DNA of 11,447 nucleotides from a virus (lineage: Duplodnaviria; Heunggongvirae; Uroviricota; Caudoviricetes), in the IMG/VR virus record IMGVR_UViG_2541047595_000012; one strand, written 5' to 3'. Below the pieces are notes generated by a model. That model made no database searches. It was not told where the DNA came from and saw only the letters and a program-made list of their open reading frames with translations. The position numbers and the translations under genes were made by a program. Below, in pieces: positions 763-11,447 of the stretch. Positions within the stretch are counted from its first letter, which is position 1. The number at the start of each line of letters is the position of its first letter.

Positions 763-1188
763 AAGCTGTGTGACGAAGTAACCACTCTTAACAGCATAAC
801 CAATTTTTTACGTACGTAAACTACTAAATGATATTTGTGAGAATGCCACCGAGTGTTCAAAACACCACCACAAATACATAAGAAAACTTCAACAAATAAT
901 CAGTTAATAATTTCCGATGTTATTTTTAGTTTGTTTAAATTAAGCTAAAGAATTATAGAGCACTTATAAATAAGTGCCATTAATATAAATTAGCTAATAG
1001 ATTTATTTTTGTTCAGACAAGAGCCATGAATAGGATTAGATAGAAAAGGTTCAGATAAAAATAGAGATCTACTTCACAAATTAAATGAGAAACTAAAACT
1101 TACATCTTGAAATAATCACATTGATTAGATGAATATTTATCGCGCAGTGACATCATTTTTTAATAATAGTTCAAAAAAAGGGCGTACA

Positions 1189-2271
1189 ATGAAAAAATTA
1201 ACAGTGGCAATTTCTGCTGTAGCTGCATCAGTACTGATGGCGATGTCTGCTCAGGCAGCTGAAATTTATAATAAAGACAGTAACAAGCTGGATCTATACG
1301 GGAAAGTTAATGCCAAGCACTACTTCTCCTCTAATGATGCAGATGATGGTGATACTACTTATGCCCGTCTTGGCTTCAAAGGTGAAACCCAAATCAACGA
1401 TCAACTGACTGGTTTCGGTCAGTGGGAATATGAATTCAAAGGCAACCGTGCTGAATCTCAAGGTTCTTCCAAAGACAAAACCCGTCTTGCATTTGCAGGC
1501 CTGAAATTTGGTGATTACGGCTCCATCGATTACGGCCGTAACTACGGTGTAGCATACGACATCGGTGCGTGGACTGACGTTCTGCCAGAATTCGGTGGTG
1601 ATACCTGGACCCAAACAGATGTGTTCATGACTGGTCGCACTACTGGTGTTGCAACTTATCGTAACAACGACTTCTTTGGTCTGGTCGATGGCCTGAACTT
1701 TGCTGCTCAGTATCAGGGTAAAAATGACCGCACTGACGTAACTGAAGCCAATGGTGATGGTTTCGGTTTCTCCACTACTTATGAGTATGAAGGATTCGGC
1801 GTGGGTGCAACCTATGCTAAATCAGATCGCACTGACGGTCAGGTCGCCTATGGTAAGAGCAAATTCAATGCCTCCGGCAAAAATGCGGAAGTATGGGCTG
1901 CAGGCCTGAAATATGATGCGAACAATATCTATCTGGCTACCACATATTCTGAAACTCAGAATATGACCGTTTTTGGTAATAACCATATTGCAAACAAAGC
2001 ACAAAACTTTGAAGCAGTAGCACAATATCAGTTTGACTTCGGTCTGCGCCCATCTGTTGCTTACCTTCAGTCAAAAGGTAAAGACCTTGGTGTTCATGGT
2101 GACCGAGACTTAGTCAAGTATGTCGATGTCGGTGCTACTTACTACTTTAATAAAAACATGTCTACTTTTGTTGATTACAAAATCAACTTAATTGACGATA
2201 GTAAGTTTACCAAAACAGCTGGTATTGATACCGACGACATCGTCGCTGTAGGTCTGGTTTATCAGTTCTAA
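1189..2271 (+). CDS. nmpC: outer-membrane general porin, OmpC/OmpF/PhoE family (prophage-encoded NmpC/Lc type)
   Basis: ORF 1129..2271; the likely true start is the ATG at 1189 ([23 protein letters not shown]|AEIYNKD...), giving a classic signal peptide with AQA cleavage site. Porin hallmarks are present: the internal PEFGGD loop-3 motif and a C-terminal ...VAVGLVYQF ending in Phe. Its position between Q and the lysis genes, on the opposite strand, matches the DLP12 nmpC / PA-2 Lc arrangement. Confidence 0.9.
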
Positions 2272-5116: not shown

Positions 5117-5130
5117 GACTTCCCTCTCCC

Positions 5131-5164
5131 CCAAATAAAAAGGCCTGCAATTACCAGCAGGCCT
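5131..5164 (-). terminator. rho-independent terminator between ren and ninB (tR2-like)
   Basis: Stem AGGCCTGC / GCAGGCCT (8 bp) with an 8-nt loop; on the minus strand it is followed by TTTTATTTGG. The position matches lambda tR2 at the head of the nin region. Confidence 0.5.
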
Positions 5165-5189
5165 GTTATTAGCTCAGTGATGTAGATGG

Positions 5190-5480
5190 TCATCTTTTAA
5201 CTCCATATACCGCCAATACCCGTTTCATCGCGGCACTCTGGCGACACTCCTTAAAAATTAGGTTCGTGCTCATCTTTCCTTCCCGTTCTTCCCTGGTAGC
5301 AAACCGGTAATACACCGTTCGCCAGACCTTACCTTCGATAACCAGAAGACCTGCCCGTGCCATTTTAGCCGCGGCCTGATTTATGCTGGTTACTGTTGCG
5401 CCTGTTAGCGCGGCAACGTCCGGCGCACAGAAGCTATTATGCGTCCCCAGGTAATGAATAATTGCCTCTTTGCCCGTCAT
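5190..5480 (-). CDS. ren: Ren protein
   Basis: 96-aa ORF MTGKEAIIHYLGTHNSFCAPDVAALTGATVTSINQAAAKMARAGLLVIEGKVWRTVYY..., recognised as lambda Ren. Its start overlaps the P stop (ATGA). Confidence 0.85.
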   Translation of the reverse strand: MTGKEAIIHYLGTHNSFCAPDVAALTGATVTSINQAAAKMARAGLLVIEGKVWRTVYYRFATREEREGKMSTNLIFKECRQSAAMKRVLAVYGVKR

Positions 5481-6178
5481 ACACTTGCTCCTTTCAGTCC
5501 GAACTTAGCTTTGAGTTCTGCGATCTTCGCCAGAGCCTGTGCACGATTTAGAGGTCTACCGCCCATGACAGGAAGTTGTTTTACTGGTTCAGGGATCGCC
5601 TCACCACGGTTAATTCTCGCAGTCATATGGACAAGCTCATCTGCGGCCTTACGGCGTAATTCCGCATCAGTAAGCGCATTGGCCCGCATGTTCTGATACA
5701 GGTTGGTAACCAGCCAGTAGTGCGCGTTTGATTTCCACGGATAAGACTCCGCATCCGGATACAGGCCTCGCTTCCGGCAATACTCGTAAACCATATCAAC
5801 CAGCTCGCTGACGTTTGGCAGTCCGGCGATAACGGATGCTTCTTCCCGGCACCATGCAACAAACTGCCCGGGTGATGGCAGAAATGGTCGATTCTGCCGA
5901 CGGGCTACGCGCATTCCTGCGTTAACCTGTTCCATTGTGGTGATCCCGTTTTCCCGGAAAGCCAGAACCCACTGGCGGCGGATTTCGTTCAGTTCGTTCT
6001 GGTCACGGTTAGCCAGACTCGCCGGGAAAGTTGCCAGTAACTGGCTGAACACACCGTTGATGATCTGCGCTACCTGCTGTACCTGCGGCTTTTCGTCGTA
6101 CTGTTCCGGCATGTTGTTGGCGATCCTACGCATCTGCTCACGGTCAAAGTTAACCATCTGTGCGGCGATGTTTTTCAT
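5477..6178 (-). CDS. P: replication protein P (DnaB helicase loader)
   Basis: 233-aa ORF MKNIAAQMVNFDREQMRRIANNMPEQYDEKPQVQQVAQIINGVFSQLLATFPASLANRDQ..., recognised as lambda P. Its start overlaps the O stop (ATGA). Confidence 0.9.
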   Translation of the reverse strand: MKNIAAQMVNFDREQMRRIANNMPEQYDEKPQVQQVAQIINGVFSQLLATFPASLANRDQNELNEIRRQWVLAFRENGITTMEQVNAGMRVARRQNRPFLPSPGQFVAWCREEASVIAGLPNVSELVDMVYEYCRKRGLYPDAESYPWKSNAHYWLVTNLYQNMRANALTDAELRRKAADELVHMTARINRGEAIPEPVKQLPVMGGRPLNRAQALAKIAELKAKFGLKGASV

Positions 6179-7074
6179 AGATCCACCCCGTAAATCCAGT
6201 CTGTGTTTGTCAGGTCGAGTTTTGGTTTGCTGGCTGTCACGACTGCCTGTTGCTTGTTACGGTTGATTTCGAGCTGGGTCCACTTGTCGCGGAGTTTGGC
6301 CGGGCTAAGCACGTTACCGGACCAGAAGTTGTCCTGGCATGCCCAGCGGAACAGCACGCACATGTCGCGGTGGTTACGTCCGTCACGTTCACGCATCAGG
6401 CGGATATCGTTAGCCCACCCTGCAAAATTCGGTTTTCTGGCTGATGGCGCGATGGTCTTCACCATGTCAAACATCCACTCTGCGGCGGTCAGGTCTTCTG
6501 CTGTCCCCCACTTGCTGCCGCTCTGAATTGCAGCATCCGGTTTCACCACAGAAAGGTCGTTTTCTGGCTGGTCAGAGGATTCGCCAGAATTCTCTGACGA
6601 ATAATCTTTTCTTTTTTCTTTTGTAATAGTGTCTTTTGTGTCCCCCTGTTTTGAGGGATAGCAATCCCCCAATTTGAGGGATGTTTTATCCCTCGTTTTA
6701 GGGGATTTTCCCTCGTTTTGAGGGATGCACCATTCTGAGATGTTTTTGTTTGGTCCAAACATGCCGCCTTGCTGCTTGATAATATTCATTCTGACGAGTT
6801 CTAACTTGGCTTCATTGCACCGTTTGACGGGTAACTTTGTAATCTCGCTAAGTTGAGAATCGGTGATTCTGTCCATTGGTTTATTCCACCCATAGGTTTT
6901 ACGCAGAATGGCAAGCAGCACTTTAAACTGTCGCTTGGTCAGATCTGCGCCTGAATAAGCCTCAAGCAGCATATTTGATAGTCTGGCGTAACCATCATCG
7001 AGATCTGCCACATTACGCTCCTGTTTGGCAAAGTTACCTCTGCAGAAGTTGAGTATTTTTGCTGTATTTGTCAT
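6175..7074 (-). CDS. O: replication initiator protein O
   Basis: 299-aa ORF MTNTAKILNFCRGNFAKQERNVADLDDGYARLSNMLLEAYSGADLTKRQFKVLLAILRKTYGWNKP..., recognised as lambda O. The ori iterons are embedded in the middle of the gene, as in lambda. Confidence 0.9.
   Translation of the reverse strand: MTNTAKILNFCRGNFAKQERNVADLDDGYARLSNMLLEAYSGADLTKRQFKVLLAILRKTYGWNKPMDRITDSQLSEITKLPVKRCNEAKLELVRMNIIKQQGGMFGPNKNISEWCIPQNEGKSPKTRDKTSLKLGDCYPSKQGDTKDTITKEKRKDYSSENSGESSDQPENDLSVVKPDAAIQSGSKWGTAEDLTAAEWMFDMVKTIAPSARKPNFAGWANDIRLMRERDGRNHRDMCVLFRWACQDNFWSGNVLSPAKLRDKWTQLEINRNKQQAVVTASKPKLDLTNTDWIYGVDL
6595..6725. repeat. ori-lambda: four iterons (about 18-20 bp each, core TCCCTC/GAGGGA with A/T spacers) plus an adjacent AT-rich unwinding region, inside the O coding sequence
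   Basis: Direct repeats are visible at about 6641-6658, 6663-6681, 6686-6704 and 6705-6724 (for example TCCCCCTGTTTTGAGGGA and TTCCCTCGTTTTGAGGGA). They are preceded by the AT-rich stretch 6598-6640 (AATCTTTTCTTTTTTCTTTTGTAATAGTGTCTTTTGTG). Confidence 0.8.
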
Positions 7075-7870: not shown

Positions 7871-8530
7871 ATGAAAATGAAATGGTATGAACTGGCTAGA
7901 TCCAGAATGAAAGAGCTCGGCATAACTCAAGAGAAGTTAGCCGAAGAGCTAGGTATGACGCAGGGTGGGATTGGACACTGGTTGCGCGGATCTCGTCATC
8001 CATCTCTTAGTGATATTGGAGTGGTGTTTAAATACCTTGGTATTGATAACATATCATTCAACCACGACGGGACATTTTCACCTGTTGGCGAATACTCATC
8101 GGCCCCAGTTAAAAAACAATATGAGTACCCTGTTTTTTCTCATGTTCAGGCTGGGATGTTCTCTCCAGAACTCAGAACCTTTACCAAAGGCGATGCGGAG
8201 AGATTGGTAAGCACAACCAAAAAAGCCAGTGACTCTGCATTCTGGCTTGAGGTTGAAGGTAACTCAATGACCGCACCAACAGGTTCCAAGCCCAGCTTTC
8301 CTGACGGGATGTTAATTCTGGTTGACCCTGAGCAGGCTGTTGAGCCAGGCGATTTCTGTATAGCCAGACTTGGTGGTGATGAGTTTACCTTCAAGAAACT
8401 GATCAGGGATAGCGGTCAGGTGTTTCTACAGCCACTAAACCCACAATACCCAATGATCCCATGCAATGAGAGTTGTTCCGTTGTGGGGAAAGTTATCGCT
8501 AGTCAGTGGCCTGAAGAGACGTTTGGGTGA
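7871..8530 (+). CDS. cI: CI prophage repressor (HTH N-terminal domain plus LexA/S24-type autocleavage C-terminal domain)
   Basis: The C-terminal part (...[25 protein letters not shown]...[29 protein letters not shown]...[32 protein letters not shown]) matches the lambda CI C-terminal domain from memory, including the Ser/Lys dyad context. The N-terminal HTH domain is non-lambda. The start is uncertain: ATGs at 7835, 7871 and 7877 are all in frame, with no Shine-Dalgarno, consistent with a leaderless message; 7871 is chosen. Confidence 0.8.
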
Positions 8531-8629
8531 TGTGACTGCATGTAATTTATCAAAAGCGCACATACCCTATGCTAAACAACTTACTGATTAATTTACTGAA
8601 AATCATTTATTAAAAAATAAGGATTGCCA

Positions 8630-9481
8630 ATGAATTTTTCGGAAGAAAAAAATAAAGATTTCCCCAAAAAAGTACAAACTTCGCTATTTGAAGTAGATTG
8701 TAATGACGGATGCTCATTTGTAGATGTCTTGAAGACATGCGAAAATTTCAAACAAAACTATGACTTTGAGTACTCTAACGACACTCGGGCAAGGATAAAA
8801 AGTCTAATAGTTAACGATGACCAAATCTTTGCTGGGATAACACTCTATGAGCCCAAAGCTTTGGTCCCGGTAACTCCAAAAGATGGAGACCATAACGATT
8901 TGCAGGATGTAGATAATTATGATAAATGCCATATATTCTTGCTTGCAACAGAAAGCAATATTCTAACAATTTTTCAACTATCAGGAACTCATCCTTTATC
9001 TAAGTTAAAAAAAATATTTAGCCTCATGAATATCAATGTGAATATTTCTGAGAAACTCAACAAAGATGCACTTGGCAAGATAATAAAAGATGGAATACGC
9101 TCCATCAGCCTAAGTATTGAAACAACAAAAGAAGATCTAGAAGAGGCAAAAGCAACATCATTAGGTATCACTGGAAAAGCTAAAGAAGCTTTGTCAAGAT
9201 TATTTGAGAAAGAGCAAGATGATGACAACTCTTTCTATGGGCTTCTGACTCTTGACAAGAGACATAACCCAAAACTCTTAAATATTGCGAACAAAAATCC
9301 AAGCCTGATCATTGATGAATTATCGGAAGAGTTCTTCATCACAACATCAAAAGGCCAAGCGATCAAAAGCTCTGAAATCAAAACAAAAAAAGATTATTAC
9401 ACAAGAAAGTATGGCTCTACCACCATAAAAGCGGAACACGCTAAGGAAATTCTTGAGCACTTCAAGGATTTCATACTATAA
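8630..9481 (+). CDS. hypothetical soluble protein (283 aa), first gene of an AT-rich cassette in the rexA position; not recognisable as lambda RexA
   Basis: The ATG at 8630 is preceded by AAGGA (the track ORF begins on a TTG at 8624). The protein is Lys/Asp/Glu-rich with no transmembrane segment, no Walker motif and no obvious nuclease or protease signature. Codon usage and base composition are visibly AT-rich compared with the flanking phage genes. Confidence 0.7.
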   Translation: MNFSEEKNKDFPKKVQTSLFEVDCNDGCSFVDVLKTCENFKQNYDFEYSNDTRARIKSLIVNDDQIFAGITLYEPKALVPVTPKDGDHNDLQDVDNYDKCHIFLLATESNILTIFQLSGTHPLSKLKKIFSLMNINVNISEKLNKDALGKIIKDGIRSISLSIETTKEDLEEAKATSLGITGKAKEALSRLFEKEQDDDNSFYGLLTLDKRHNPKLLNIANKNPSLIIDELSEEFFITTSKGQAIKSSEIKTKKDYYTRKYGSTTIKAEHAKEILEHFKDFIL

Positions 9482-9518
9482 TGGAGGGTCGTACGTATAA
9501 CCAAAGGGGGAGGTGTGA

Positions 9519-10010
9519 ATGAGAGGTAAAGATTGGAGTTATATTTTTTCCATAATCTTTTTTATCTGCCTTTCTCTTGTATTAACTTATTATTTACATG
9601 ATAAGGTTAGATATAACAAAGAGTTGCTTGGACTTGTGGCAAATATATTTTCAATATTAACAGGGTTTCTGTTACTTGTTATAACCACAAGTGGAGACGT
9701 AGCATCGTTTACAGAAGGTAAATCAAGATCAGAAAAGTATGCAACTAAGAGGAAATTCGAAATTCGGTTTTCTCGTTACATGATGCTTTTTTACCTCTAT
9801 CTTACAGTCTTGTGCTTAATATTCTTCTACTACATGCTGCTGCCACCAGGAGACACCAGTAAAATCTTAGCAAGCAAGCCGCCTGTGACCAACCTGAGTC
9901 TGGCACTTGAGTTTATTATATGCTGGCTAAGCATAATTTCATTTGGATGCTCTTTTTTCATACCAATAAAGCTGAAACAGATTTATAACGAAAAACTCAA
10001 GCAACAATAA
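9519..10010 (+). CDS. hypothetical integral membrane protein (163 aa, about four transmembrane helices), second gene of the cassette in the rexB position
   Basis: The ATG at 9519 is preceded by a strong GGGGGAGG Shine-Dalgarno. Four hydrophobic stretches are visible (about aa 8-26, 36-57, 87-108 and 126-150). The size and topology resemble RexB-type small membrane effectors, but the sequence is not recognisably RexB. Confidence 0.75.
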   Translation: MRGKDWSYIFSIIFFICLSLVLTYYLHDKVRYNKELLGLVANIFSILTGFLLLVITTSGDVASFTEGKSRSEKYATKRKFEIRFSRYMMLFYLYLTVLCLIFFYYMLLPPGDTSKILASKPPVTNLSLALEFIICWLSIISFGCSFFIPIKLKQIYNEKLKQQ

Positions 10011-10036
10011 CCCGGCCTCAGCGCCGGGTTTTCTTT
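10009..10036 (+). terminator. rho-independent terminator (AACCCGGC-CTCAGC-GCCGGGTT followed by TTCTTTG); timm-like end of the cI-cassette transcript
   Basis: Perfect 8-bp GC-rich stem directly after the stop of the membrane-protein gene, followed by a T-rich tract. Confidence 0.7.
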
Positions 10037-10731: not shown

Positions 10732-11313
10732 TTACTTGTTTTTGCCATGCTTATCCTGAGCGATAAGTTCATCCATAAGGCTGTCTGCCTTCCCGGCAAA
10801 CCGAATGTAGCACTCATGTCTATAGCTTTCAGGAATAACAAAACGGTCGGTATCAGGATATCCAACAGCAGGAGGCCTTCGAACGAGGAGTCCTTTTTTG
10901 AGCAATGAAATTGATTCATGAACTCCCTTTTCCGTTTGTAGCTGGTTATTAGCGGCTACAGCGAATGCCAAATACGCTCTTTCTCCAAGAGTTAACGAAT
11001 CAAACAAATCTTGCACATATTTTTCTTCTTTAGATTTGCGCTTCTGAGCAGCGGATACCTCAATTCTTTCAGTCACAGCGTGATAAGCGGAATTAACAAC
11101 GCCGTTAAGCACATAGCTAACGCAAAACAACAGGATGTAATACATCCAGTAATGAGGAAGGATTTCTGGATTATGCAGGTTTATCCATTCTTTTACGCTT
11201 ACCGGCATAACAATAATCAATATGATCAGGATGATTAGCATATGAATCAACTGTTTAAGTGTCATTCCTTGCAGGAAAAAATGCATTAGTTCCTGCCACC
11301 ATGAGTTGTTCAT
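10732..11313 (-). CDS. sieB: superinfection exclusion protein B (SieB-like), membrane-anchored
   Basis: 193-aa ORF with an N-terminal hydrophobic segment (LIHMLIILIILIIVMPV... and YWMYYILLFCVSYVL), adjacent to N. Its size and location match lambda/P22 SieB; recognition is from memory and only moderately secure. Confidence 0.6.
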   Translation of the reverse strand: MNNSWWQELMHFFLQGMTLKQLIHMLIILIILIIVMPVSVKEWINLHNPEILPHYWMYYILLFCVSYVLNGVVNSAYHAVTERIEVSAAQKRKSKEEKYVQDLFDSLTLGERAYLAFAVAANNQLQTEKGVHESISLLKKGLLVRRPPAVGYPDTDRFVIPESYRHECYIRFAGKADSLMDELIAQDKHGKNK

Positions 11314-11357: not shown

Positions 11358-11447
11358 TGAACCGCCCCGGGAATCCTGGAGACTAAACTTCCTGAGAAAG
11401 AGGTAAACAGGATGACTAAAAATACTCGTTTTTCCCCCGAAGTCCGT
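11358..11447 (+). mobile_element. left end of an IS3-family insertion sequence (IS629/IS1203-like), with terminal inverted repeat and the start of orfA (ATG at 11412)
   Basis: TGAACCGCCCCGGGAATCCTGG... begins at 11358, the typical TGA-initiated IS3-family end. orfA begins MTKNTRFSPEVR (11412..11447, partial), which matches the N-terminus of IS629-type OrfA as I recall it. The element continues beyond the window. Confidence 0.7.

What the first reader, a model, noticed from the sequence alone, without database searches (positions are those of the whole stretch)
8531..10036. Unrecognised AT-rich two-gene cassette in the rexA-rexB slot downstream of cI: candidate phage-exclusion or abortive-infection system
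In lambda the genes cotranscribed with cI are rexA and rexB, a sensor plus a four-helix membrane effector that abort superinfecting phage. Here the same slot, between the cI stop and a timm-like terminator just before OL/pL, holds a 283-aa soluble protein and a 163-aa protein with about four transmembrane helices. Neither reads as lambda RexA or RexB to me. The segment (about 8560-10010) is conspicuously AT-rich relative to the rest of the prophage, which is the signature of a horizontally acquired moron, and both genes have strong Shine-Dalgarno sequences. The soluble protein has no motif I can assign (no P-loop, no nuclease or protease signature). Prophage immunity regions are known hotspots for defence cargo, so a sensor plus membrane-effector pair expressed in the lysogen is the most plausible function.
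Basis: partly seen in the sequence, partly recalled or inferred. Interest (0 to 1): 0.85.

Follow-up and report, generated by a model that had tools for sequence, protein, structure and literature searches.

The report
Hidden Rex-like exclusion cassette beside cI
A lambda-like prophage carries, exactly where lambda keeps its rexA-rexB phage-exclusion genes, an unannotated gene pair that sequence databases do not recognise. The soluble protein is predicted to fold like RexA and its partner is a four-helix membrane protein, so it is most likely a remote, uncharacterised version of a known kind of anti-phage system.

Summary
Two tightly linked, AT-rich genes (A, 283 aa, soluble; B, 163 aa, 4 TM helices) fill the interval between the cI stop codon and a terminator. 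Homology to lambda, and to phages with the same cI, breaks at 8528-8532 and resumes at 10002-10009, so this is a precise replacement of rexAB or other cargo.

Pfam, NCBIfam, PADLOC, PDB sequence searches and hhalign find nothing. The RexA and RexB models work on lambda itself.

The two genes are adjacent in every locus examined: 54 of 54 viral contigs, prophages of many Enterobacterales, and a Haemophilus-type locus without prophage genes. They occupy different prophage slots.

The best reading is a RexAB-type sensor plus membrane-effector exclusion module that defence databases miss. It parallels the validated P. putida RexAB, which was classified on similar criteria plus an HHpred link that could not be run here. 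Function is untested. It is a new variant of a known kind, of moderate interest.

The parts
7871..8530 (+). cI repressor (HTH_3 + Peptidase_S24). It is the upstream gene of the presumed cI-A-B transcription unit. It is context rather than part of the swapped cassette.
   Evidence: Pfam Peptidase_S24 1e-28 and HTH_3 2e-10. Annotated as cI in PhiR11_1. Its 3' part is 95% identical to lambda cI DNA.
8531..8629 (+). cI-A intergenic spacer (99 nt, AT-rich). No terminator-like hairpin was found. It contains the left recombination junction at about 8528-8532 and the Shine-Dalgarno AAGGA at 8619-8623.
   Evidence: Sequence read. Terminator scan finds none here on the + strand. Homology breakpoints.
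8630..9481 (+). Gene A: 283-aa soluble, acidic protein (pI 5.6). Predicted RexA/RdgC-like fold. Putative cytoplasmic sensor.
9453..9482 (+). Promoter-like site TTGAGC-18 nt-TATAAT inside the 3' end of gene A, 37 nt upstream of the B start codon. It could allow independent expression of B. It is a consensus match only.
   Evidence: Promoter scan, 10 of 12 matches. The region gave 11 sites against 6.7 +/- 2.6 in shuffles, so this is weak evidence.
9519..10010 (+). Gene B: 163-aa basic (pI 9.4) inner-membrane protein with 4 TM helices. Both termini and a basic central loop (residues 65-89 between TM2 and TM3, 8 K/R) are predicted to be cytoplasmic. TM2 is near-invariant (ANIFSILTGFLLLVI). Putative membrane effector. 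Strong SD GGGGGAGG at 9506-9513.
   Evidence: Hydropathy and charge analysis. Alignment of 25 homologues. AF2 model of four long helices, pLDDT 76.
10009..10036 (+). Intrinsic terminator (8-bp GC-rich stem, 6-nt loop, T run) overlapping the B stop codon. It is also the right recombination junction. It corresponds to the terminator after lambda rexB.
   Evidence: Terminator scan. 34 of 35 nt at 10002-10036 match lambda 35799-35833. Homology to lambda, ev207, 2B8 and 1717 resumes at 10002-10009.

Best explanation
The cassette is a remote, sequence-unrecognisable RexAB-type two-component phage-exclusion (abortive infection) module.

Inferred expression: in the lysogen it is transcribed together with cI, from the maintenance promoter through to the terminator at 10009-10036.

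Protein A is a cytoplasmic protein with a RexA/RdgC-like fold. It is inferred to act as the sensor, probably as a dimer, recognising a product or DNA intermediate of an infecting phage.

Protein B is a 4-TM inner-membrane protein inferred to be the effector. When activated by A it would depolarise or permeabilise the membrane, stop growth, and abort the infection.

What is shown here:
- Exact occupancy of the rexAB slot.
- Strict A-B linkage across distant relatives and different genomic slots.
- Purifying selection on both genes.
- A RexA-like predicted fold for A.
- A RexB-like membrane topology for B.

What is inferred only: lysogenic co-transcription, the A-B interaction, the trigger, membrane damage, and any defence phenotype.
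For: 1. Slot. Lambda and three phages with the same cI allele share the flanks. Homology breaks at the cI stop codon and resumes at the terminator.

3. Domain layout. By my reading of the model's secondary-structure order, A has a sheet-rich block at about 1-135. A block of about 4 strands and 4-5 helices follows at 137-239. Further strands and a C-terminal helix at 244-282 complete it. This would mirror RexA's split globular domain (1-139 and 248-279) and inserted dimerisation domain (143-234) (PMC11077077). These boundaries are inferred, not taken from a domain parse or a residue-level superposition.

4. Topology of B. B has 4 TM helices, N-in/C-in, with a basic central loop, like RexB. [quoted passage not shown]

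5. Linkage. A B homologue lies directly downstream of A in 23 of 23 earlier loci and 54 of 54 IMG/VR loci. The same holds for distant relatives from Haemophilus-type and other contigs (hhalign 99.8% and 97.8%).

6. Mobility between lysogen-expressed slots. The pair lies downstream of cI in E. coli and Salmonella, with two different cI alleles there. It lies antisense between Q and the holin in 44 of 54 viral contigs. It also lies at a prophage end next to a type I-F CRISPR locus, and in a locus with no prophage genes among its called neighbours.

8. Name lead. UniRef names one member of the Haemophilus cluster of the A superfamily 'DUF4747 family protein'. DUF4747 is the HHpred motif reported in lambda RexA, Sbash gp30 and CarolAnn gp44 (PMC6426596, PMC6426606).

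9. Selection. dN is about 0.12 with saturated dS against the Salmonella copy.
Against: - No sequence or profile method used here links A to RexA or B to RexB. BLASTP gave E > 1. hhalign probabilities were below 1%, even with a 35-sequence diverse profile and a 4-member Rex alignment. The Pfam and PADLOC RexA/RexB models hit lambda at about 1e-60 to 1e-110 but no family member at E <= 10. Unfiltered hmmsearch of all 143 collected family proteins found nothing.
- Foldseek against the PDB found nothing with E <= 0.001 and did not list RexA in its top 50.
- Foldseek of the B model against BFVD gave no significant hit, and RexB was not in the top 50.
- A is acidic (pI 5.6) whereas RexA is basic (pI 8.6). 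DNA binding cannot be assumed.
- The DUF4747 name could not be reproduced with the Pfam or NCBIfam copies here.
- No phenotype data exist for this pair in the searched literature.
Confidence: 0.6

Rival explanations
1. A two-gene membrane-associated defence or exclusion system that is mechanistically unrelated to Rex. One example would be an injection-blocking superinfection-exclusion pair. Another would be a system in which A is an enzyme or adaptor of a new type. On this view the similarity of A to RexA is only a generic alpha/beta fold resemblance.
For: - No sequence link to Rex.
- Foldseek finds no PDB hit.
- B has no fold match to RexB.
- A is acidic, unlike RexA.
- The slot hosts unrelated cargo in sister phages.
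Against: - A has nearly the same length as RexA, and its inferred domain boundaries are similar.
- There is an obligatory 4-TM partner of RexB-like topology.
- No polar motif is conserved across the whole superfamily. D90, N96, D98 and H101 are lost in distant members, which argues against an enzyme active site.
Confidence: 0.2
2. A prophage-stabilising toxin-antitoxin-like or addiction pair. B would be a toxic small membrane protein held in check by A, with no primary role in phage defence.
For: - Strict two-gene linkage and mobility.
- B is a small, basic, 4-TM protein.
- One locus has no prophage genes among its called neighbours.
Against: - The gene sizes (283 + 163 aa) and order are atypical for membrane-toxin TA modules.
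- The locations are classic lysogen-expressed moron and defence slots, next to cI or antisense between Q and the holin.
- The RexA-like fold of A.
- RexAB-type systems themselves show effector toxicity when the sensor is overexpressed (PMC12894663). Toxicity alone would therefore not separate the two readings.
Confidence: 0.07
3. A modulator of the prophage's own lysis-lysogeny switch. Lambda RexA has such a role, stabilising the lytic state by binding DNA and CI/Cro. On this view the pair is not a defence system.
For: - Position directly downstream of cI in this window and in Salmonella.
- RexA-like fold.
- Published RexA role in the bistable switch (PMC11077077).
Against: - In 44 of 54 viral contigs the pair is not next to cI. 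It lies antisense between Q and the holin.
- It also occurs in a locus with no prophage genes among its called neighbours.
- It is found with at least three different cI alleles. A function tied to one repressor is therefore unlikely to explain the family.
- The obligatory membrane partner is not needed for RexA's switch function (PMC11077077).
Confidence: 0.08

Closest known systems
Lambda RexA/RexB exclusion system (Pfam PF15969/PF15968; PDB 8TWQ)
   Same: - Exactly the same genomic slot and junctions: cI stop codon to the terminator before OL/pL.
- Same gene order and orientation.
- Nearly the same sizes: 283/163 aa against 279/144 aa.
- B has 4 TM helices, N-in/C-in, with a basic central loop like RexB.
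   Different: - No detectable sequence or profile similarity for either protein.
- The structural match covers only 130 residues.
- A is acidic (pI 5.6 against 8.6).
- B is 19 aa longer, with a longer third loop.
- The cassette is more AT-rich (35% against 40-42% GC).
- The family mostly sits in the Q-holin slot rather than next to cI.
P. putida prophage P1 RexABpp (PP_5643/PP_5644; PMC12894663)
   Same: - The adjacent 4-TM partner has no detectable RexB homology.
- It is encoded in a prophage.
- It shows experimentally that this level of resemblance can go with real RexAB-type defence and membrane damage.
   Different: - RexApp is larger (37.5 kDa with its tag).
- HHpred linked it to RexA at 98% probability. 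No such profile link was obtained here.
- It comes from a different host clade.
Actinobacteriophage Rex-like systems: Sbash gp30/gp31, CarolAnn gp44/gp43, Butters gp30/gp31 (PMC6426596, PMC6426606, PMC7542560)
   Same: - A soluble DUF4747/RexA-like protein plus a downstream 4-TM protein.
- Expressed in the lysogen.
- Located either next to the repressor (CarolAnn) or elsewhere with its own promoter (Sbash). This mirrors the two slots seen for this family.
   Different: - Different phyla.
- The only link is a UniRef 'DUF4747 family protein' name on one distant A-family member. It could not be reproduced.
RdgC recombination-associated DNA-binding protein (PDB 2OWL)
   Different: No Pfam RdgC match in any family member. 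RdgC has no obligatory membrane partner.

Membership tests
RexA family (Pfam PF15969, PADLOC PDLC02339) | Significant match to the family HMM or profile | tested here: not met
   - No hit at E <= 10 for A or 35 relatives.
- Lambda RexA scores 1e-97 (Pfam) and 9e-110 (PADLOC) as a positive control.
- hhalign probability 0.2-0.3%.
- hmmsearch --max found nothing.
RexA family (structure 8TWQ) | RexA/RdgC-like fold of the globular domain | tested here: met
   [not shown]
RexA family (structure 8TWQ) | Full two-domain architecture: a split globular domain with an inserted dimerisation domain of 4 strands and 4 helices, forming a homodimer | tested here: inconclusive
   [not shown]
RexA family | Non-specific DNA binding and interaction with RexB, CI and Cro | not testable with these tools
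   This needs EMSA and two-hybrid experiments. A is acidic (pI 5.6) against 8.6 for RexA.
RexB family (Pfam PF15968, PADLOC PDLC02340) | Significant match to the family HMM or profile | tested here: not met
   - No RexB hit in B or 24 relatives at E <= 10.
- Lambda RexB scores 8.5e-92 (Pfam) and 8.6e-61 (PADLOC).
- hhalign probability 0.1%.
RexB family | Small inner-membrane protein with four TM helices, cytoplasmic termini and a basic central cytoplasmic loop, encoded directly downstream of the sensor gene | tested here: met
   - TM segments of B at 8-26, 37-55, 90-108 and 132-150, with the central loop carrying 8 K/R.
- RexB TM segments at 8-26, 48-66, 84-102 and 116-134, with the central loop carrying 5 K/R.
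- The AF2 model shows four long helices.
- B lies 37 nt downstream of A.
RexB family | Fold similarity to RexB | tested here: inconclusive
   Foldseek against BFVD gave no hit with E <= 0.001, and RexB was not in the top 50. The best hit is an uncharacterised siphovirus protein (TM-score 0.58, E 0.06). Small helical bundles carry little signal.
RexAB-type system (operational class: lambda, Sbash, CarolAnn, P. putida) | Located so as to be expressed from the prophage in the lysogen, co-transcribed with the repressor or from its own promoter | tested here: met
   - Same strand as cI, 99 nt downstream, with no intervening terminator and a terminator right after B.
- Identical junctions to lambda rexAB.
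- In other clades the pair is antisense to the late operon.
- Actual transcription was not measured.
RexAB-type system (operational class) | Confers exclusion or abortive infection through sensor-dependent membrane damage | not testable with these tools
   No experimental data on this pair were found in the literature searches.
RdgC (Pfam PF04381) | Match to the RdgC family profile | tested here: not met
   [not shown]
Any catalogued defence system (PADLOC-DB v2) | HMM match to a known or candidate defence protein | tested here: not met
   No hits for A, B, or the Pantoea-type A and B.

The most novel reading that the evidence does not exclude
A-B may define a previously unrecognised family, or a deep branch of a RexA/RdgC-fold plus 4-TM-effector superfamily. 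It is spread through Enterobacterales prophages and Pasteurellaceae chromosomes and is invisible to all current defence-system catalogues. Its sensor would recognise a different trigger from lambda RexA: it is acidic, has no conserved DNA-binding signature, and has a variable disordered insert at 172-203. It would exclude a different set of phages. Under the stronger version, the RexA resemblance is convergent and the pair is a new membrane-effector abortive-infection system.
Probability: 0.3. Interest if true: 0.65.

Novelty: new variant of a known kind. Interest (0 to 1): 0.5.

Why it matters
RexAB is the oldest known phage-exclusion system, yet its trigger and effector mechanism remain unresolved. 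It has looked like a narrow family: only about 19-20 records in the 50,697-record phage collection match lambda RexA or RexB, nearly all of them identical to lambda.

This cassette shows that the same slot in lambda-like phages can hold a pair with the same architecture and probable fold but no recognisable sequence similarity. That pair circulates as a strict two-gene module among different prophage hotspots.

If it is functional, three things follow:
- The RexAB-type class is widened, and defence annotation tools are shown to miss it.
- A natural 'allelic' comparison to lambda rexAB becomes available in near-isogenic, inducible E. coli K-12-infecting phages (2G7b, PhiR11_1). This is convenient for working out what sensors of this fold detect and how the 4-TM partner damages the membrane.
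- Evidence is added that the interval from the cI stop codon to the terminator is a cassette-exchange hotspot for defence cargo.

Tried and rejected
Family and sequence searches
- Pfam, PADLOC, NCBIfam and PHROGs scans of A and B gave nothing informative except PHROG 23561 of unknown function. Members of both alignments gave nothing either.
- All 25 B members give a sub-threshold match to DUF4064 (best 3.5e-5, below the gathering score). I treated this as hydrophobic-helix noise.
- BLASTP and hhalign against lambda RexA and RexB found no signal. The same was true against a 4-member Rex alignment built from the Klebsiella, Hafnia and Salmonella phages.
- Profile searches of the PDB sequences found nothing below E 0.2.
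- Unfiltered hmmsearch with the Rex HMMs against all collected family proteins found nothing.

Structure searches
- Foldseek of model B against BFVD was inconclusive.

Deep search
- The exhaustive HMMER search of 1.84 billion representatives returned only 34 proteins. None carries a Pfam family that bridges to RexA or RdgC.

Catalytic motif
- I looked for a conserved catalytic motif. D90-x5-N96-x-D98-xx-H101 is invariant in close relatives but lost in distant ones. I rejected it as an active site.

Literature
- Searches for the phage names and accession numbers (PhiR11_1, 2G7b, PV340536, ECOR13) found no study of this pair.

Technical failures and discarded values
- The search for related loci with the most diverse alignment failed because it had no conserved stretch.
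- The 'DUF4747' name on a Haemophilus member could not be reproduced with the libraries at hand.
- One dN/dS value (against L059) looked inconsistent with the 87% identity. I did not use it.
Full report
**1. What is in the window**

The window is the early and immunity region, plus part of the late region, of a lambda-like prophage. The gene order is:
- holin, then an antisense OmpC-type porin, then Q, rusA, ninB, a methyltransferase, ren, P, O, cII and cro on the minus strand;
- then cI, two unknown genes and N on the plus strand, followed by sieB on the minus strand.

The immunity segment 7400-11360 is 100% identical to the sequenced phages 2G7b and PhiR11_1. The cassette itself occurs in only 7 of 5,426 complete E. 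coli genomes.

**2.

- cI ends at 8530.
- Gene A runs 8630-9481 (283 aa) with AAGGA six bases upstream.
- Gene B runs 9519-10010 (163 aa) with GGGGGAGG five bases upstream.
- The only plus-strand terminator-like hairpin in the region is 10009-10030 followed by a T run. None lies between cI and A.
- Cassette GC is 34.8%, against 45.7% for the rest of the window.
- B has four hydrophobic helices, and its central loop carries 8 K/R.

**3. It is literally the rexAB slot, and that slot is a cassette-exchange hotspot**

Lambda DNA matches the window up to 8531 (the 3' part of cI, 95% identity) and again from 10002 (terminator and OL, 91.5%). rexA-rexB lie between those points.

Three phage groups have a 97-99% identical cI. 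In all three, homology breaks at 8528-8532 and resumes at 10009, but the cargo differs:
- ev207/ev017 carry a pair matching the PADLOC candidate system PDC-M24 (a DUF6978-like protein plus a DUF1828 protein).
- 2B8 carries a NYN-domain protein.
- Stx2 phage 1717 carries an unknown 173-aa protein.

In Salmonella the same A-B cassette, 74% identical in DNA from the A start codon through the terminator, sits behind two different cI alleles.

**4. The two genes are real and form an obligate pair**

- A has 63 clusters of homologues among 5.8 billion proteins, all annotated as hypothetical and all from Enterobacterales.
- An exhaustive profile search of 1.84 billion representatives found only 34.
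- Only 5 loci were confirmed in a pattern-based scan of one genome for each of 185,579 species.
- B has 30 clusters.
- A B homologue lies immediately downstream of A in 23 of 23 loci fetched by protein look-up and in 54 of 54 IMG/VR viral contigs.
- The same is true for distant A relatives. One cluster has named members from Haemophilus influenzae, H. haemolyticus and H. parainfluenzae. Its locus has no prophage genes among the called neighbours. Another is an unassigned contig. Their partners match the B profile at 99.8% and 97.8% hhalign probability.
- Against the Salmonella copy, dN is about 0.12 while synonymous sites are saturated.
- Between clades, B is more conserved than A (37-45% against 25-33% identity).

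**5. Where the pair sits**

- Downstream of cI in 4 of 54 viral contigs, and in this window and the Salmonella loci.
- Antisense between the Q antiterminator and the holin in 44 of 54.
- Other positions in 6 of 54. In the related Morganella loci the pair lies at a prophage end next to type I-F cas genes.

The cI and Q-holin positions are known sites for lysogen-expressed accessory genes. In this very window the Q-holin slot holds a porin gene.

**6. What the proteins are**

*Sequence methods fail completely.*
- Pfam, NCBIfam and PADLOC give no hit. Their RexA and RexB models score lambda's proteins at about 1e-60 to 1e-110.
- BLASTP, hhalign with profiles of up to 35 diverse sequences, profile searches of PDB sequences, and unfiltered hmmsearch all find nothing.

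*Structure prediction is informative for A.*
- The model has pLDDT 79 and pTM 0.74.
- RexA and RdgC are each other's published structural relatives (PMC11077077).
- By my reading of its secondary-structure order, the model has three blocks. These are a sheet-rich block at about 1-135, an inserted block of about 4 strands and 4-5 helices at 137-239, and closing strands with a C-terminal helix at 244-282. This would mirror RexA's split globular domain (1-139 and 248-279) and dimerisation domain (143-234) (PMC11077077).
- Foldseek did not recover the match.

*B is less clear.*
- B models as four long helices (pLDDT 76).
- It shares RexB's topology, N-in/C-in with a basic central loop.
- Foldseek against viral models found no significant relative, and RexB was not listed.
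- B's TM2 (ANIFSILTGFLLLVI) and residues F80, R83, F84 and Y87, at the junction of the central loop and TM3, are invariant.

*No active site.* No polar motif is conserved across the whole A superfamily. This argues against an enzyme and for a binding or sensor protein.

**7. Comparison with what is known**

The closest precedent is P. putida PP_5643/PP_5644 (PMC12894663):
- They have no BLAST similarity to Rex.
- The 4-TM partner has no detectable RexB homology.
- Experiments nevertheless show phage defence, DNA binding by the RexA-like protein, and RexB-dependent membrane permeabilisation.

The actinobacteriophage systems Sbash gp30/31 and CarolAnn gp44/43 were likewise linked to RexAB only through a weak DUF4747 HHpred match and a 4-TM partner (PMC6426596, PMC6426606). 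UniRef names one Haemophilus parainfluenzae member of the A superfamily 'DUF4747 family protein'. I could not reproduce that name with the libraries here, so it remains a lead.

On the fold and partner criteria used for those systems, this cassette qualifies as RexAB-type. It fails membership of the RexA and RexB sequence families as defined by their HMMs. Unlike the P. putida system, it also lacks a profile-level link to RexA.

**8. Mechanism proposed**

- Inferred: cI, A and B are transcribed together in the lysogen.
- Inferred: A, probably a dimer, senses an infecting phage's product or DNA intermediate.
- Inferred: A activates B, which depolarises or permeabilises the inner membrane and aborts the infection.
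- Shown here: slot, linkage, selection, the fold of A, and the topology of B.
- Confidence is about 0.6.

Rivals:
- A mechanistically unrelated membrane-associated system, with the RexA resemblance being generic (0.2).
- A switch modulator like RexA's second role (0.08). The pair's usual position away from cI disfavours this.
- A toxin-antitoxin-like addiction pair (0.07).

**9. Verdict**

The tools add two things. The pair is most likely a very remote RexAB-type module rather than a new kind of system. It is also a rare, strictly linked, mobile two-gene family that no defence catalogue recognises. I rate it a new variant of a known kind with moderate interest (0.5). It can be tested directly, because it sits in inducible, K-12-infecting phages with natural isogenic comparators.

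Noticed in passing
window 1129-2271 (+), with AT-rich upstream DNA at about 800-1200: A full-length OmpC/OmpK36-type porin gene lies antisense between the Q antiterminator (2460-2858, -) and the holin (385-600, -). It matches PDB OmpC at 6e-137. The DNA just upstream has 27% GC. This Q-holin slot is the same one that holds the 273-aa clade of the A-B pair in 44 of 54 viral contigs.
   Followed up: partly
window 9453-9482 (+): A promoter-like site TTGAGC-18-TATAAT (10 of 12 matches) lies inside the 3' end of gene A, 37 nt before the B start codon. By position it resembles lambda's pLIT promoter inside rexA, which transcribes rexB alone (from my own knowledge). It is only a consensus match: the region gave 11 sites against 6.7 expected.
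   Followed up: no
window 8528-8532 and 10002-10009; loci L002, L010, L011, L012: The interval from the cI stop codon to the terminator behaves as a precise exchange cassette. Lambda (rexAB), ev207 (a pair matching PADLOC PDC-M24), 2B8 (a NYN-domain protein) and Stx2 phage 1717 (an unknown 173-aa protein) share the flanks to within a few bases but carry different cargo.
   Followed up: yes
window 10732-11313 (-): A SieB superinfection-exclusion gene (Pfam SieB, 4.9e-22) lies convergent with N. The immunity region therefore carries a second exclusion function next to the cassette.
   Followed up: no
L028 4001-5367 (protein cluster with Haemophilus influenzae, haemolyticus and parainfluenzae members): A distant A-B pair (287 + 166 aa) lies between B12-binding methionine-synthase-like genes and an AAA_14/DUF4143 ATPase, with no prophage genes among the called neighbours. 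UniRef names one member of the cluster 'DUF4747 family protein'. DUF4747 is the motif reported in lambda RexA and Sbash gp30. The name could not be reproduced with Pfam or NCBIfam here.
   Followed up: partly
L007-L009 (Morganella morganii), pair at 5126-6501: Here the A-B pair sits after tail genes at the edge of a prophage, about 4 kb from a type I-F CRISPR-Cas operon (Csy1-3). This places it in a defence-rich neighbourhood.
   Followed up: no
window 11361-11447: Identity to phages 2G7b and PhiR11_1 stops at 11360, which is inside sieB (its start codon is at 11313). The last 87 nt of the window, including the 5' end of sieB, differ from those phages. This suggests another mosaic junction.
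   Followed up: no
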